NCBI GenBank assembly: GCA_963821165.1 | Contig: CAWGCQ010000001.1 | Location: 732,427 to 796,426 of the forward strand | Length of the DNA stretch: 64,000 bases | Source of the DNA: an uncultured Acidobacteriaceae bacterium | GTDB taxonomy: Bacteria; Acidobacteriota; Terriglobia; Terriglobales; Acidobacteriaceae | Direction of reading: 5' to 3' | Program-made: the position numbers and the translations under genes | Notes under the pieces: generated by a model | Seen by the model: only the letters and a program-made list of their open reading frames with translations | Databases searched by the model: none | Told to the model about the DNA's origin: nothing | Part shown: in pieces, positions 5,810 through 63,843 of the stretch | Position numbering within the stretch: the first letter of the stretch is position 1 | How the letters are laid out: every line of letters begins with the position of its first letter

Positions 5810-6108
5810 CACCGGCCATCTTCAATCCGCGTGCGCGTTCCCTGGTACGTGGGAATGTCATCGTCTACGCCAGCGTGGCCGCCGCGACCCTGATTTCGAG
5901 GTTCCCTCACATCCGCCCCACCCCGTGGCTGATTCTTCCCTTCCTCGGCTGCCTGGCCGGCATGGGCGACACGCTGCGCTGCATCCAGAAGCGCTGGAAC
6001 CTGTACCACGGCGGCGTCATGTTCTGCCTCTACATGGACCTGATGGCCATCATGCTGGTGCTGTTCTTCCTGGTGTATCCGTACCTGGTCTGGCTGGGCG
6101 AGGCCTGA
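5806..6108 (+). CDS. Small three-helix membrane protein
   Basis: MTPAIFNPRARS... hydrophobic 100 aa ORF with ATGA overlap to the upstream stop. Confidence 0.7.
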   Translation: MTPAIFNPRARSLVRGNVIVYASVAAATLISRFPHIRPTPWLILPFLGCLAGMGDTLRCIQKRWNLYHGGVMFCLYMDLMAIMLVLFFLVYPYLVWLGEA

Positions 6109-6164
6109 GCGGCGGGCGACGCGCGGTCCTTCGCGAGCGCCACCCTGTAAACTGACACTTGGCA

Positions 6165-8533
6165 ATGTCAGATAAAACCTTCTACGTCACCACACCGATC
6201 TATTACGTCAACGCGCGCCCCCACATCGGCCACGCGTACACCACCATCGTCGCGGACGTCCTCGCGCGCCGTCACCGCCTGCTCGGCGACGACACCTTCT
6301 TCCTCACCGGCACCGACGAGCACGGCCAGAAGATCGAGCGCTCCGCCGCCGCCGCCGGCATCCCGCCGCAGCAGTTCGCCGACCAGGTCTCGAAGTCGTT
6401 CGAAGACCTCTGGAAGCGCATGGGCATCACCAACAACGACTACATCCGCACCACCAGCGCCAAGCACAAGCGCGGCGTCCAGAAGCTCTTCTCGACGCTC
6501 TACGAGCGCGGCTTCATCTACCTCGCCAGCTACACCGGCAGCTACTGCGTCTCCGACGAAGCCTTCGTCGACGCCCCCGTCGGCACCCCCTGCCCCGACT
6601 GCGGCCGCCTGCTCGAAGAGGTCACCGAAGAGAACTTCTTCTTCAAGCTCTCGCGCCTTCCAACAGCCCCTCCTCGACCTCATCGAGTCCGACACCTCCC
6701 ATCACCCCGAGTCCCGCAGAACGAAGTCCTGAGCTTCCTCCGCGGCAACGTTGCCGACGAATCCGGCGAGAGCGATCCGAAGGCGGATCGACCGATGAGG
6801 ACGAATCGCAGCTCGTCATCGACGCTTCGGAATAAGCATCCGCGCAGGGAACGCTACGTCCCGGCGCCCTGAAAGACCTCAGCATCTCGCGCTCGCAGCT
6901 TCACCTGGGGCATTCCCGTCCCCGAGCCCGCCGCCAGCATCGCCGCGCAAAAGCACGTCATCTACGTCTGGCTCGACGCGCTCGCCAACTACATGACCGC
7001 CCTCGGCTACGGCAGCGACGACGAACACCCTCGTTCAAGAAATTCTGGCCCGCCAACCTGCACCTCGTCGGCAAAGAGATCATCCGCTTCCACTGCGTCT
7101 ACTGGCCCGCGTTCCTGCTGGCCGCCGACCTGCCGCTGCCCAAGGCCGTCACCGCGCACGGCTGGCTGCTCTTCGAAGACTCGAAGATGTCGAAGTCCAA
7201 GGGCAACATCGTCCGCACCGAAACCATCCTCGATGCCTTCGGCGCTGAGGTCTACGGCAAGCAGTTCCCGGACAGCTCGAAGCACGAGCGCGATCTCTTC
7301 GCCTCCGACGTCCTCCGCTACTTCCTCCTCCGCGAGATTCCCTTCGGCCAGGACGGCAGCTTCAGCTTCGACGCGCTGATCACCCGCTACAACGCCGACC
7401 TCGCCAACGGCTACGGCAACCTCGTCAGCCGCACGCTTGAAGATGATTGAGCAAGTACTTGAACGGCGCTCATTGCCGAGCCGAACAAGCCCTGGACGCT
7501 CCGGCAAGCAAGACAGCTTCGGTTTCTAGCGATGCAACGACGCGAGGTCGCTCGAGCAGATCACCGAGACAGATTCAGTCGATTCAAGTCGTGCTCGATC
7601 TTGAGGAAGCACGAGTTCATTACGCAGCAACACGCTTCGAGCTGCTCACGCAAGCTCGTGTCTGCGCGCATCACAATCGTGGATCATGTACCTGCAGCCA
7701 CGAACCCTGGAAACTGCAAGTCAGACAATGAGGAAGACCAACGTGGAGACGCACGAAGTTCTCTACACCGCCGCCGAATCCATCCGCATCATCACCGCCC
7801 TGCTCTACCCCATCCTCCCCTACGCCACCGCCAACGTCTGGGCGCAACTCGGCCTCGGCGACATCGAAGCTGCCGCACGCAACGGCGAACTCAACAATCT
7901 CGAATGGGGCGGCCTCAAACCCGGCACCAAACTCGGCCCGCTCGGCCCCATCTTCCCCCGCGCCGACAAAGGACTCGCACAGATCATGACCGACATGGAA
8001 AACCCCACTCCCGTAGACACAGAACCCGCGGACCCCGCCGCCGTGCCGCCCACCACCGACCCGGCCGCACCGCCCCGCACCACCAGCATCCCCGAACCCA
8101 TCACCGCCCTGCCCGTCGGCGGCAGCACCGCGCTCACCACCGGTCCCGACCCAGCCACGCCTCCGCCTGGACCCTCGACCCTGCGGCCCTGAACCCTCAT
8201 CTCAAATCACCATCGACGACTTCGCCAAAGTCGAGCTACGCGTCGCGCAGATCCTCGTCGCCGAGCGCATCCCCAAGGCCGACAAGCTCCTCCGCCTCGA
8301 AGTCGACCTCGGCCCGCTACGGCAAACGCCAGATCTTGTCGGGCATCGCCGAGTGGTACGCACCCGAAGACCTCATCGGCCGCCGCATCGTCGTGATCAC
8401 GAACCTCGCGCCCCGCAAGATGCGCGGGCTCGAGTCCCACGGCATGCTGCTCGCCGCCTCGCACGGCGAAGGCGGCAAGCCCGTCCTCGCCACCTTCGGC
8501 GAAGACATCGCCCTCGGCTCGCGACTCAAGTAG
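6165..8533 (+). CDS. metG: Methionine--tRNA ligase with C-terminal tRNA-binding domain, multiple frameshifts
   Basis: [46 protein letters not shown]; C-terminal [20 protein letters not shown]. Confidence 0.96.
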
Positions 8534-8541
8534 CACCTTCA

Positions 8542-8573
8542 CCTAATCCCTAATCCCTGTTCCCTAATCCCTG
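8542..8573 (+). repeat. Heptamer tandem array (CCCTAAT/CCCTGTT)
   Basis: cctaat ccctaat ccctgtt ccctaat ccctg between metG and tatD. Confidence 0.9.
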
Positions 8574-8578
8574 CCTTT

Positions 8579-62283: not shown

Positions 62284-63138
62284 ATGCCTGACCATTACAC
62301 GCGCGCGTTTGCTGCTGCTGAGTACGTTCGCTCGATGCATCCGACAGAGCCGAGACTGGCAATCATTCTCGGATCGGGGCTGGGGAACTTTGCGACACAG
62401 GTGGAAGACGCAACGACGATTGAGTATGGAGAGATTCCGGGTTGGCCGGTCTCGACCGTGGAGGGTCACGACGGGAAGCTGGTGCTGGGGTCAATTGGCG
62501 GCGTGACGGTGGCGGTGATGCAGGGGCGCGTGCATGCGTATGAGGGCTACTCGATGAACGAGGTGACCTTTCCGATGCGGGTGCTGGGACTGCTGGGATG
62601 CACGGCGCTGATCGTGACGAATGCGGCGGGCGGAATTAATAAAAGCTATGGCGAAGGGACGCTGGTGGCTATTAGCGACCATATCAATTTGACTGGATCG
62701 AATGCAGCACTGGGGCGCAATGAGCCGCGATTTGGCTTGAAGAAGGGCACGGGGCAGAGATTTTTTGATATGACGGCGGCGTACTCGCCGAAGCTAAGGG
62801 CGTTGGCGCATGCGGAGGCAGAGCGGCAGAAGATTCCACTGCCGGAGGGCGTGTACCTGGCGGTGCTGGGGCCAAGCTATGAGACGCCGGCGGAGATTCG
62901 CGCGTTTCGGATACTGGGCGCGGACCTGGTGGGGATGAGCACGGTGCATGAGGTGATCGTGGCGCGGCATATGGGGATTGAGGTGCTGGGAATTTCGCTG
63001 GTGACGAACATGGCGGCAGGCGTGCTCGATCAGCCGATCAATCACGCTGAGGTGATGGAGACGGGGCGACGTGTGGAGGCGCAGTTTACGTCGTTGGTAA
63101 AGGCGCTGGTGCCGCAGGTGGCCGCGGCTACAGCGTAG
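62284..63138 (+). CDS. Purine-nucleoside phosphorylase (trimeric family)
   Basis: ILGSGLG, GH.G, QGRVH.YEG, TNAAGG, GPSYETPAE, VGMSTV.E. Confidence 0.95.
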   Translation: MPDHYTRAFAAAEYVRSMHPTEPRLAIILGSGLGNFATQVEDATTIEYGEIPGWPVSTVEGHDGKLVLGSIGGVTVAVMQGRVHAYEGYSMNEVTFPMRVLGLLGCTALIVTNAAGGINKSYGEGTLVAISDHINLTGSNAALGRNEPRFGLKKGTGQRFFDMTAAYSPKLRALAHAEAERQKIPLPEGVYLAVLGPSYETPAEIRAFRILGADLVGMSTVHEVIVARHMGIEVLGISLVTNMAAGVLDQPINHAEVMETGRRVEAQFTSLVKALVPQVAAATA

Positions 63139-63156
63139 TCAGCGGATCAGGAAGTT

Positions 63157-63188
63157 GGCGCCTGGAGCGGGTTGGAGGCTCCAGGCGC
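63157..63188. terminator. Hairpin between convergent PNP and lemA
   Basis: gcgcctggagc...gctccaggcgc stem. Confidence 0.55.
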
Positions 63189-63193
63189 TCGCC

Positions 63194-63778
63194 TTACTTG
63201 CTGAAGTCGACGGTCGGGGCGGTGGCGTTGGCAGGGTTGCCCTTGAAATATTCGTCGCGGTAGTGGAAGCCCGCCATGTTGGCCCAGATGCTGTTGGGGA
63301 ACTGGCGAATGAAGACGTTGTAGGCTTCGAGCGCCTTGTTGTAGCGCATGCGAGCGACGGAGATGCGGTTCTCGGTGCCGGCAAGCTCATCTTCGAGACG
63401 CATGAACTGATCGTTGCCCTTGAGATTGGGGTACTCCTCCTGAAGGCGATAGAGGGGGATCAGGGCGGCGTCGAGCTTGGTGTTGGCTTGAATGCTGCTG
63501 GCGCGATTGGACGAGGCCGCGAGGACGCCGGCACGGGCATTGGCGATGTTGGTGAGGACGGTTTCTTCTTCGGCGGTGTAGCCCTTGACGCTGGCGACGA
63601 GGTTGGGGATGAGGTCGAGGCGGCGCTGCTGCTGGATGTCTACCTGGGAGTAATTCTGATCGACGTCCTCATTGAGCTGCACCATCTGGTTCTTGGCGGA
63701 GACGTAACTTCCGAAGCTCAGGATGACGACCAGGACCAGAAGGCCGACGACTCCGAGCACAACCCAAAGAGCTTTCAT
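63194..63778 (-). CDS. lemA: LemA family protein
   Basis: N-terminal TM; QRR.DLIPNLV..VKGY, E.YPNLK, LAGTENRI.VAR.RYN, FP. Confidence 0.94.
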   Translation of the reverse strand: MKALWVVLGVVGLLVLVVILSFGSYVSAKNQMVQLNEDVDQNYSQVDIQQQRRLDLIPNLVASVKGYTAEEETVLTNIANARAGVLAASSNRASSIQANTKLDAALIPLYRLQEEYPNLKGNDQFMRLEDELAGTENRISVARMRYNKALEAYNVFIRQFPNSIWANMAGFHYRDEYFKGNPANATAPTVDFSK

Positions 63779-63843
63779 CGATGTATTCCCTTTCGCGTCT
63801 ATCGTAGTCATTTGCTCAAACCCTTTGTGACTCTGAGATCAAT

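What the first reader, a model, noticed from the sequence alone, without database searches (positions are those of the whole stretch)
6100..63800. Extreme, gene-orientation-independent GC skew that appears to fade with distance from the elements
Hand counts on single 60-nt lines: 601-660 C22/G19; 36901-36960 (minus-strand tilS) C26/G13; 43021-43080 (plus-strand gltX) C29/G9; 51001-51060 C14/G17; 55501-55560 (minus-strand gene) C15/G29; 58801-58860 (plus-strand gene) C12/G30. Plus-strand genes use C-ending codons on the left (ctc, gcc, cgc) and G-ending codons on the right (ctg, gcg, cgg), so the bias follows the DNA strand rather than transcription. proS and the PBP gene in the centre use many A/T-ending codons despite being core genes. 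Ordinary replichore skew is usually milder and does not fade over tens of kb. This suggests a local directional process such as long-lived ssDNA, strand displacement or run-off replication. These are spot counts, not a full profile.
Basis: partly seen in the sequence, partly recalled or inferred. Interest (0 to 1): 0.75.

Follow-up and report, generated by a model that had tools for sequence, protein, structure and literature searches.

The report
Divergent, fading, extreme GC skew
In this soil acidobacterium (Granulicella group), the two DNA strands carry a very strong and still-accumulating C-to-T mutation imbalance that flips sign at a fixed 9-kb zone and weakens over about 40 kb on each side, as if DNA synthesis started there and ran outward, which is unexpected for a single-origin bacterial chromosome.

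Summary
GC skew is -0.3 to -0.42 at 21-48 kb, about 0 at 48.6-54.7 kb and +0.3 to +0.48 from 54.8 kb. At four-fold degenerate sites it reaches -0.64/-0.80 and +0.73/+0.88, for genes on either strand. The fade is real gene by gene (Spearman -0.90 on the right arm, +0.69 on the left).

It is not purely local. The 4.68-Mb genome holds 77 strongly skewed blocks, 73 zero-skew blocks and about 20 sign switches of each polarity, on top of a replichore trend centred on dnaA.

Four results argue against a simple rearrangement relic:
- The flanks are collinear with a relative (G015) whose skew is uniform across them.
- Polarised substitutions within the clade show the asymmetry is ongoing. It has the present sign on both arms and is strongest next to the switch.
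- Minus-to-plus switches are sharp (median gap 6 kb) and plus-to-minus switches are broad (about 32 kb).
- A polar 0.3-0.6 kb repeat sits at 10 of 20 minus-to-plus switches and at none of 20 plus-to-minus switches.

Best reading (about 0.5): an origin-like zone of outward DNA synthesis. The extreme amplitude itself is a clade trait and does not depend on the repeat. No direct replication data could be obtained. The scan had not noted this on other DNA.

The parts
1..3800 (.). Far left end of the left arm: weak skew (per-gene GC3 skew -0.20 to +0.14).
   Evidence: Ongoing asymmetry is still leftward but weak: C-loss/G-loss ratio R = 0.58 for -14 to +3 kb.
4800..21000 (.). Intermediate part of the left arm: GC3 skew -0.1 to -0.54, on genes of both strands.
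   Evidence: Four-fold skew -0.36 and -0.40. R = 0.58 and 0.53.
21000..45030 (.). Full-strength negative arm (A). Genes include priA (21590-24199, -), an M24 peptidase, an S15 peptidase, ftsH (33970-35895, -), a tilS-like gene (36196-37344, -) and gltX (41964 onward, apparently frameshifted).
   Evidence: Skew -0.26 to -0.42. Four-fold skew -0.80 and -0.64. Pfam. R = 0.33 and 0.43; C>T/G>A per-site ratio 0.22-0.32.
45040..45630 (.). Tandem array of short hairpin and hexamer repeats, strongly T-rich on the + strand (AT skew down to -0.8).
45702..46300 (+). Left copy of the dispersed non-coding element, at the right-hand edge of the negative arm.
   Evidence: Inverted-repeat arms 87-93% complementary to the right copy. 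Family of about 47 copies. Present at this locus only in the relatives that also show the switch.
46285..48524 (.). Left part of the invertible central segment: DsbD_N-like protein, redoxin (tlpA-like) and a SIS+CBS isomerase (kdsD-like). Still negatively skewed.
   Evidence: GC3 skew -0.67, -0.37 and -0.44. Pfam. R = 0.36.
48585..54366 (.). Zero-skew, lower-GC3 core block: proS, a class A PBP (transglycosylase 50456-52060 plus transpeptidase 52057-52980, split in this assembly) and an unassigned 445-aa ORF (53029-54366, -).
   Evidence: Skew -0.10 to +0.04. GC3 0.65-0.69. Pfam. Syntenic across the genus, so not foreign DNA. In G015 the same genes have skew -0.2 to -0.3. R = 1.30.
54440..55010 (-). 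Right copy of the element, inverted, at the left-hand edge of the positive arm.
   Evidence: Absent from Granulicella sp. L46 (G001), which nevertheless has the same switch.
45710..54978 (.). Segment between the inverted copies. It is flipped in G012 and G031 relative to G000 and G001.
   Evidence: Third-position distances place G012 closest to G000, then G031, then G001, so at least two inversions are needed.
55032..64000 (.). Positive arm (B): GMC oxidoreductase, esterase, cytidine deaminase, pyrimidine-nucleoside phosphorylase, nucleoside transporter and purine-nucleoside phosphorylase. The arm continues and fades to about 0 near 92-95 kb, outside the window (G000 C1 to about 827 kb).
   Evidence: Skew +0.26 to +0.48. 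Four-fold skew +0.73 and +0.88. Pfam. R = 2.43 at 55-62 kb, then 1.60, 1.35, 1.20 and 1.21 out to 95 kb. Collinear with G015, where it is negatively skewed.

Best explanation
The skew is the footprint of a strand-asymmetric, mostly C-to-T, substitution pressure of the single-stranded-exposure kind that marks leading strands (one strand G+T-rich, the other C+A-rich). This Granulicella subclade has it at exceptional strength.

In the window the pressure diverges from a fixed zone at 45.7-55.0 kb. DNA to the left behaves as if copied leftward and DNA to the right as if copied rightward. The bias is strongest beside the zone and weakens over about 40-50 kb. The zone therefore behaves like a local start zone of outward DNA synthesis (origin-like), superimposed on the ordinary dnaA-centred replichores.

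The right arm is the anomaly, because it runs against the direction expected for this replichore. About 20 such minus-to-plus switches exist in the genome. Half of them carry a polar 0.3-0.6 kb repeat pointing outward.

Shown: the composition, its independence from gene strand, the ongoing graded substitution asymmetry, collinearity with relatives, and the polarity statistics. Inferred: that the cause is fork-like DNA synthesis starting here. How it is primed is unknown.
For: 1. Strand-bound, extreme skew at four-fold sites for genes on both strands. Genome-wide GC3 skew is trimodal at -0.6, 0 and +0.6, with no gene-orientation bias (358/359 and 334/355). A>T accompanies C>G on the same strand.

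2. The asymmetry is ongoing. Substitutions were polarised on the quartet G000, G012, G031 and G001 at third positions. The C-loss/G-loss ratio on the + strand is:
- left side, from -14 kb to 45 kb: 0.58, 0.58, 0.53, 0.33, 0.43;
- left part of the central segment: 0.36;
- zero-skew block: 1.30;
- right side, 55 to 95 kb: 2.43 (CI 1.80-3.27), 1.60, 1.35, 1.20, 1.21.
A simulation with a skewed starting composition returns the true ratio, so parsimony bias is not the cause. The positive arm is therefore maintained, not decaying.

3. The sign reversed without inversion. The order and orientation left arm - central block - right arm is the same in G015 and in many other relatives. In G015 the skew is negative throughout. 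Two further switches behave the same way: C3:2811-2831k and C3:1129k are collinear with G015, which is uniformly skewed there.

4. The switch is shared by G000, G012, G031, G001/L036, L035 and L037 at similar amplitude, despite third-position distances up to 0.27.

5. Minus-to-plus switches have a median zero-skew gap of 6 kb, against 32-34 kb for plus-to-minus switches (n = 20 each; Mann-Whitney p = 3e-5 to 2e-4 under four HMM settings). This is the shape that fixed initiation with diffuse termination gives in human skew N-domains (PMC3320577, PMC2764438).

6. The element's orientation matches the block sign in 44 of 45 copies. It lies at 10 of 20 minus-to-plus switches and 0 of 20 plus-to-minus switches. 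About 16 of 40 copies sit at the upstream edge of a block and 1-2 at a downstream edge. At this locus it is present only in the genomes that have the switch.

7. Not an assembly artefact. An independent complete chromosome (G031 = OY969625.1) has the same mosaic, collinear with G000. G001 is a separate assembly of a named strain (Granulicella sp. L46).
Against: - No direct replication data.
- No DnaA-box cluster lies in the zone or anywhere else in the genome, and dnaA is on another contig. A classical oriC is therefore not supported.
- A natural bacterial chromosome with about 20 start zones has no precedent known to me.
- The outward fork would have to fire in nearly every cycle yet travel only 10-100 kb before meeting the main fork. 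That needs late or triggered firing, or low processivity.
- Half of the switches have no copy of the element.
- G015 has no copies yet shows at least one minus-to-plus switch, near 300 kb.
- Blocks 80-95 kb long keep full skew without any detected copy.
- At least one switch is a plain inversion relative to G031 (C3:540-687k, sharp at both ends), and one is a synteny breakpoint.
- The substitution test was done at this one locus only.
- The element-and-switch co-occurrence at this locus is a single evolutionary event.
Confidence: 0.5

Rival explanations
1. Ordinary single-origin replichore skew, unusually strong in this clade. Inversions and translocations scrambled it, and foreign or recombined DNA interrupted it. 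On this view the positive arm is a relic that once pointed the other way, and the fade reflects uneven amelioration.
For: - The genome has a dnaA-centred two-replichore trend with many exceptions.
- At least one exception is a real 147-kb inversion relative to G031, and one is a synteny breakpoint.
- About half of the sampled zero-skew stretches are missing from, or poorly matched in, the sister genome.
- The central segment demonstrably inverts.
- Published surveys rank Acidobacteria lowest in replichore-wide bias and high in rearrangement frequency (PMC4613354).
Against: - The right arm is collinear with outgroups in which it has the opposite sign.
- Its current substitution asymmetry has the sign that maintains its skew, with R = 2.43 next to the switch, whereas a decaying relic would show about 0.4.
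- The amplitude is undiminished in six genomes up to 0.27 apart at third positions.
- A relic model predicts equally sharp ends, not sharp minus-to-plus and broad plus-to-minus switches.
- It does not predict a smooth gene-by-gene gradient either.
Confidence: 0.2
2. A polar process that exposes one strand but is not chromosome replication. It would start at the elements or at similar sites. Candidates are conjugation-like (Hfr-type) strand transfer from oriT-like sites, recombination-dependent or break-induced synthesis, and persistent R-loops. The chance of reaching a given distance would fall off with distance.
For: - It has the same sign logic as the best explanation: the strand running 5'-3' away from the site becomes C-poor and T-rich.
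- It would give a graded decay over tens of kb.
- The repeat family has strict polarity and a bias toward block edges.
- Sequence identity between G000 and G012 is higher in the strongly skewed arms and in the fading right-arm extension (mostly 94-97%) than in the weakly skewed left region (about 91%). Frequent local exchange could produce that.
- Canonical RNase HI was found in only 2 of 18 genus genomes, and both have weak local skew. This is a weak lead toward R-loop involvement (cSDR in E. coli: PMC7045392).
Against: - No relaxase, nickase or transposase was looked for or found beside the elements.
- Half of the switches lack the element.
- G015 has extreme skew with no copies.
- The RNase HI pattern rests on two genomes and on single-locus skew values.
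- Nothing here distinguishes this from fork-like synthesis.
Confidence: 0.2
3. The skew comes from transcription, codon-usage selection or amino-acid composition.
For: AT skew at third positions has a gene-strand component of about +/-0.18. ftsH, a highly conserved gene, has a reduced skew of -0.25 among neighbours at -0.66 and -0.80.
Against: GC skew has the same sign and size for genes on either strand, at third and at four-fold degenerate positions. Genes on the two strands are equally frequent in plus and minus blocks.
Confidence: 0.03
4. An artefact of an error-rich metagenome assembly, through chimeric joins or strand-specific consensus errors.
For: G000 scores only 65% complete despite 4.68 Mb in 5 contigs. 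It has split genes, namely gltX and the PBP.
Against: G012, G031, the separately assembled strain genome G001 and several other assemblies show the same switch and amplitudes. G031 is collinear with G000 and shares the mosaic.
Confidence: 0.02

Closest known systems
Replication-associated GC/AT skew of bacterial replichores (leading strand G+T-rich through cytosine deamination on the exposed template)
   Same: Same base polarity: G>C goes with T>A on one strand. It is independent of gene strand. It is dominated by C>T against G>A asymmetry. A genome-scale trend flips at dnaA, and the rRNA operon is co-oriented with that trend.
   Different: The amplitude is far higher (0.3-0.45 overall, 0.6-0.88 at four-fold sites). 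There are about 20 switches of each polarity instead of one. The strength varies over tens of kb within a replichore. Sign has reversed in collinear DNA. There is no leading-strand gene bias.
Skew N-domains / replication-fork-polarity gradients of mammalian genomes (PMC3320577, PMC2764438)
   Same: Sharp upward jumps in skew at fixed sites, followed by gradual decline towards the next jump. Skew is proportional to net fork direction.
   Different: Those are eukaryotic, megabase-sized and weak in amplitude, and are backed by replication-timing and Okazaki-fragment data. Here the scale is 20-200 kb in a bacterium, and there are no replication data.
DnaA-independent initiation at R-loops (constitutive stable DNA replication, oriK sites) in E. 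coli rnhA mutants (PMC7045392)
   Same: Extra start sites away from oriC in a bacterial chromosome. Most of this genus lacks a canonical RNase HI match.
   Different: cSDR is a mutant phenotype, has broad and weak initiation regions, and is not known to leave a compositional footprint. No R-loop or initiation evidence exists here.
Strand-displacement gradient of vertebrate mitochondrial DNA (skew proportional to time spent single-stranded; my own knowledge)
   Same: A spatial gradient of C>T-type asymmetry along the molecule, tied to distance from a start site.
   Different: Here the maximum is beside the start and falls off on both sides. The context is a chromosome. The mechanism is untested.
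Replication-oriented insertion of IS200/IS605-type single-strand transposons and their non-autonomous derivatives (Ton-Hoang et al. 2010, my own knowledge)
   Same: A repeat family whose orientation tracks the leading/lagging strand (44 of 45 copies).
   Different: That model explains orientation. It does not explain why copies sit at the upstream edges of skew blocks and at minus-to-plus but not plus-to-minus switches. No transposase link was examined.

Membership tests
Ordinary replichore GC skew (single origin, single terminus) | Strand-bound bias, independent of gene orientation, with G>C and T>A on the same strand | tested here: met
Ordinary replichore GC skew (single origin, single terminus) | One minus-to-plus switch (origin, near dnaA) and one plus-to-minus switch (terminus) per chromosome | tested here: not met
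   About 20 switches of each kind. The window's switch is on a different contig from dnaA and about 1.26 Mb from dnaA in the complete relative G031.
Ordinary replichore GC skew (single origin, single terminus) | Roughly constant strength along a replichore | tested here: not met
   Per-gene gradient. Substitution asymmetry R differs significantly between neighbouring 7-12 kb bins.
Chromosomal origin oriC | Cluster of DnaA boxes with an unwinding element, usually next to dnaA/dnaN | tested here: not met
   Only two one-mismatch boxes in 40-60 kb. There is no cluster of 4 or more boxes per 600 bp anywhere in the genome, including near dnaA, so the E. coli consensus may not apply. dnaA is at C3:735.5 kb.
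Chromosomal origin oriC | Minus-to-plus skew switch with divergent ongoing strand asymmetry | tested here: met
Chromosomal origin oriC | Peak of copy number in growing cells, or mapped initiation | not testable with these tools
Relic of an inversion or translocation (rearrangement mosaic) | The switch coincides with a synteny breakpoint relative to outgroups | tested here: not met
   The window is collinear in G015 and others. The same holds at C3:2811-2831k and C3:1129k. The feature is met at two other switches: C3:540/687k against G031 and C3:2412k.
Relic of an inversion or translocation (rearrangement mosaic) | Current substitutions erode the wrong-sign block (asymmetry opposite to its skew) | tested here: not met
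   R = 2.43 next to the switch in the positive arm, the same sign as its skew. The estimator was validated.
Horizontally acquired island (as the explanation of the zero-skew central block) | Absent from, or not syntenic in, relatives | tested here: not met
   The tlpA-kdsD-proS-PBP block is syntenic across about 40 loci of the genus and is skewed in G015.
Fork-polarity (N-domain-like) skew pattern of multi-origin chromosomes | Sharp upward jumps and gradual downward transitions | tested here: met
   Median gaps are 6 kb against 32-34 kb, p <= 2e-4. Gradual plus-to-zero-to-minus decline to the right of three inverted-pair loci.
Fork-polarity (N-domain-like) skew pattern of multi-origin chromosomes | Independent evidence of several active origins | not testable with these tools
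   This needs marker-frequency, OK-seq or 2D-gel data.

The most novel reading that the evidence does not exclude
In one Granulicella subclade the chromosome is copied not only from the dnaA-linked origin but also from about 20 fixed, DnaA-box-free start zones. Many of these were created by insertion of a polar 0.3-0.6 kb mobile repeat, singly or as divergent pairs. DNA synthesis runs outward from them with long-lived single-stranded DNA. It writes a local sawtooth of extreme GC skew and reverses the skew of neighbouring core genes in place.
Probability: 0.3. Interest if true: 0.93.

Novelty: new variant of a known kind. Interest (0 to 1): 0.8.

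Why it matters
Bacterial chromosomes are taught as single-origin replicons, and GC skew is used routinely to place that origin and to flag misassemblies.

Here the skew is about as strong as it can get (G:C above 10:1 at some silent sites). 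It also breaks the single-origin rules in a structured, polar way: sharp upward jumps, graded declines, sign reversal in collinear genes, and an ongoing substitution asymmetry that matches.

If the cause is local initiation of DNA synthesis, this would be a natural multi-start bacterial chromosome, possibly seeded by a mobile element. It would be directly testable in a cultured strain, Granulicella sp. L46.

Even if the cause proves more ordinary, two points stand. Published genome-wide indices rank Acidobacteria as the least strand-biased phylum (PMC4613354), and they may miss a very strong local bias of this kind. Skew-based origin finding or misassembly calling would also mislead in this group.

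Tried and rejected
- **Assembly artefact:** rejected, because independent assemblies share the pattern.
- **The window's switch as the chromosomal origin:** rejected. dnaA is elsewhere, the switch is about 1.26 Mb from dnaA in G031, and the positive arm is only about 40 kb long.
- **DnaA boxes:** no cluster anywhere, so uninformative.
- **Missing uracil-DNA glycosylase as the cause of extreme C>T asymmetry:** UDG-superfamily genes are present in strong-skew and weak-skew genomes alike.
- **RNase HI:** a canonical match was found only in G016 and G018. It is kept as a weak lead, not evidence.
- **The element as a necessary cause of skew:** rejected (G015).
- **A rule that each element gives 20-40 kb of skew:** it fails for blocks of 80-95 kb without copies.
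- **Shared sequence at the element-free switches:** only short, common repeats were found.
- **Profiles anchored on HMM block edges:** uninformative by construction.
- **Literature:** no paper on extreme or mosaic skew in Granulicella or Acidobacteriaceae was found.
- One malformed reference was corrected.

Full report
**1.

A full profile shows the following:

| Region | GC skew (2-kb windows) |
|---|---|
| 21-48 kb | -0.26 to -0.42 |
| 48.6-54.7 kb | about 0 |
| 54.8-60 kb | +0.26 to +0.48 |

Both edges of the central block are sharp. I called genes with a simple codon-model ORF picker and measured skew at silent sites.

- Per-gene GC3 skew is -0.55 to -0.80 on the left and +0.56 to +0.72 on the right, for genes on either strand.
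- At four-fold degenerate sites, counted on the + strand, the values are -0.80 and -0.64 (+ and - genes, 21-45 kb) and +0.73 and +0.88 (55-62 kb).
- The central proS/PBP block has about zero skew and lower GC at silent sites (0.62-0.67 against 0.82-0.89).

The bias therefore survives control for gene strand and amino-acid content.

The fade is also real, gene by gene.

- On the right, skew declines smoothly from +0.72 at 55 kb to about 0 at 92 kb, outside the window (rho = -0.90, 28 genes).
- On the left it declines from about -0.7 to about -0.1 between 45 kb and 0 kb (rho = 0.69, 39 genes).
- On the left it then returns to full strength about 31 kb upstream of the window.

**2. Context**

The window is G000:C1:732427-796426 of a 4.68-Mb, five-contig assembly. 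CheckM completeness is only 65%, and some genes are visibly split (gltX and the PBP). Relatives place it in Granulicella (Acidobacteriaceae). G001 is Granulicella sp. L46, and the closest complete chromosome is OY969625.1, here G031.

Genome-wide findings:

- Per-gene GC3 skew is trimodal at -0.6, 0 and +0.6.
- Genes on the two strands are equally frequent in minus and plus blocks (358/359 and 334/355).
- The C-rich strand is also A-rich.
- A three-state HMM finds 43 plus blocks (1.43 Mb), 34 minus blocks (1.41 Mb) and 73 zero blocks (1.84 Mb; GC 0.587 against 0.62).

I sampled G031 every 79 kb. It is collinear with G000 and shows the same mosaic, so this is not a G000 misassembly. It also shows a large-scale trend: mostly plus from dnaA (0.76 Mb) to about 3.0 Mb, and mostly minus from there back round to dnaA. 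The single rRNA operon is co-oriented with that trend.

The window lies in the minus replichore. The anomaly is therefore the positive arm.

A published survey ranks Acidobacteria lowest in replichore-wide composition bias (PMC4613354). A strong local bias that flips sign many times, as here, would largely cancel in such a whole-replichore index. I found no paper describing it.

**3. Is the positive arm a rearrangement relic?**

Three lines of evidence say no.

*Synteny.* The order and orientation gltX ... tlpA-kdsD-proS-PBP ... cdd-nucleoside genes is the same in G015 across window coordinates 38-71 kb, and in many other loci. In G015 the whole stretch is negatively skewed. In the nearest outgroups (L042, L046) the right arm is near zero. 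Only G000, G012, G031, G001/L036, L035 and L037 have the switch.

*Replication at other switches.* C3:2811-2831k, which has another inverted element pair, and C3:1129k are both collinear with G015, which is uniformly skewed there.

I aligned 160 kb of G000 with G012, G031 and G001. I polarised third-position changes on the three terminal branches and the G000+G012 stem.

| Region | C-loss/G-loss per site on the + strand |
|---|---|
| -14 to 45 kb (five bins, left to right) | 0.58, 0.58, 0.53, 0.33, 0.43 |
| 46.3-48.5 kb | 0.36 |
| Zero-skew block | 1.30 |
| 55-62 kb | 2.43 (CI 1.80-3.27) |
| 62-95 kb (four bins) | 1.60, 1.35, 1.20, 1.21 |

The C>T to G>A per-site ratio goes from 0.22-0.32 on the left to 3.4 on the right. 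A simulation with the observed branch lengths and a skewed starting composition recovers true ratios of 0.4, 1.0 and 2.5 without bias.

The asymmetry is therefore ongoing. It has the sign of the present skew on both arms and is itself graded with distance. A relic pointing the wrong way would show a ratio near 0.4 in the right arm.

**4. Polarity of the switches and the repeat family**

Minus-to-plus switches are sharp (median zero-skew gap 6 kb, seven with no gap). Plus-to-minus switches are broad (median 32-34 kb). With n = 20 each, p is 3e-5 to 2e-4 under four HMM settings.

The roughly 540-bp inverted copies at 45.7-46.3 kb and 54.4-55.0 kb belong to a family.

- **Copy number:** about 47 copies in G000, 30-35 in G001 and G031, and none in G015, G003 or G018.
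- **Orientation:** it matches the sign of the surrounding block in 44 of 45 copies.
- **Block edges:** about 16 of 40 copies lie at the upstream edge of a block, and 1-2 at a downstream edge.
- **Switch type:** copies occur at 10 of 20 minus-to-plus switches and at 0 of 20 plus-to-minus switches.
- **Shared layout:** three loci, including this one, have the form minus block, outward-facing pair around a near-zero segment, then a short fading plus arm.
- **Link to the switch:** at this locus the element is present only in genomes that have the switch. That is one evolutionary event, however.

The segment between the two copies is flipped in G012 and G031 relative to G000 and G001. Given the distances, this needs at least two inversions.

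**5. Limits on the element story**

- G015 has the same extreme amplitude with no copies. Its sampled left replichore is mostly minus, with a few exceptions including one switch.
- G001 lacks the right copy but has the switch.
- Half of the switches lack the element, and long blocks keep full skew without it.
- Some switches are plain rearrangements. C3:540-687k is inverted relative to G031 and is sharp at both ends. This shows what a recent inversion looks like. C3:2412k is a synteny breakpoint.

**6. Mechanism**

The base polarity and the C>T dominance fit deamination on the strand left single-stranded during DNA synthesis.

A stable minus-to-plus switch between collinear genes, with maintained divergent asymmetry, means that whatever exposes the strands moves outward from 45.7-55.0 kb. 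The simplest reading is an origin-like start zone whose rightward product meets the main leftward fork at variable distance. That gives a fork-polarity gradient like those of human skew N-domains (PMC3320577, PMC2764438).

Alternatives with the same sign logic are uncoupled strand-displacement synthesis, recombination-dependent synthesis, conjugation-like strand transfer, and persistent R-loops.

- There is no DnaA-box cluster.
- UDG genes do not explain the amplitude.
- Canonical RNase HI was found in only two of 18 genus genomes, both with weak local skew. This is a lead towards R-loop-primed initiation as in E. coli cSDR (PMC7045392), not evidence.
- Direct replication data could not be sought.

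**7. Verdict**

- A divergent, distance-graded, ongoing directional process is supported at this locus.
- The extreme amplitude is a clade-wide trait that does not depend on the elements.
- The pattern recurs about 20 times on top of dnaA-centred replichores.

I put about 0.5 on fork-like outward synthesis from a local start zone, 0.2 on another polar single-strand process, and 0.2 on a classical rearrangement or recombination history that I have failed to reconstruct. The remainder goes to selection or artefact.

Noticed in passing
window 45710-54978; G012:C19:132460-141756; G031 (L034): The 9-kb segment between the inverted element copies is flipped in G012 and G031 relative to G000 and G001, which needs at least two inversions on the distance-based tree. 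In four more distant loci (L066, L072, L104, L109) the nucleoside-salvage genes sit on the other side of this segment, so the junction has been rearranged repeatedly in the genus.
   Followed up: partly
G000 C3:540000-687000: A 147-kb block is inverted in G000 relative to the complete chromosome G031. The skew jumps at both ends are razor-sharp (GC3 skew -0.69 to +0.78 across a 207-nt intergenic gap at 540 kb). It is either a recent inversion or an assembly error in G000.
   Followed up: partly
window 41964-43686 and 50456-52980: gltX and the class A PBP are each split into two overlapping ORFs. Together with the 65% completeness of a 4.68-Mb, 5-contig assembly, this suggests many indel errors (uncorrected long reads).
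   Followed up: no
window 45040-45630: A tandem array of about 160-nt units built from GCAAAG-type hexamers and short hairpins. AT skew on the + strand reaches -0.8. Related short repeats are scattered through G000, G001, G012 and G003.
   Followed up: no
window 43513-43557 (-): An Rfam Acido-Lenti-1 small RNA match (39 bits, gathering score 37). It was the only Rfam hit in the window.
   Followed up: no
genus-wide (G001-G018); G018:C1:1835882-1836295, G016:C14:3707-4156: A canonical RNase HI (Pfam RNase_H, E <= 1e-15) was found in only 2 of 18 genus genomes. Both have weak skew at the one locus sampled. The others have only a divergent 35-37-bit homologue. In G015 that homologue lies inside the stretch collinear with the switch at C3:1129-1131k.
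   Followed up: partly
window -27 kb to +20 kb compared with 20-45 kb and 55-94 kb (G000 against G012): Nucleotide identity to G012 is about 91% in the weakly skewed region. It is mostly 94-97% in the strongly skewed arms and in the fading right-arm extension. This points to different recombination or divergence histories along the region.
   Followed up: no
G000 C1 808-978 kb (about 75-245 kb beyond the window start): To the right of the fading arm lies about 170 kb of zero-skew DNA with GC 0.57-0.59. The sister genome G031 barely matches it, so it is probably an accessory region. Strong negative skew resumes after it.
   Followed up: partly
G000 C1:1270432-1271931 (-): Only one 16S rRNA gene was found in the assembly. 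It lies in a zero-skew block.
   Followed up: no
window 57923-63138: The positive arm starts with a nucleoside-salvage cluster: cytidine deaminase, pyrimidine-nucleoside phosphorylase, nucleoside transporter and purine-nucleoside phosphorylase. It is conserved next to the proS block in many relatives.
   Followed up: no
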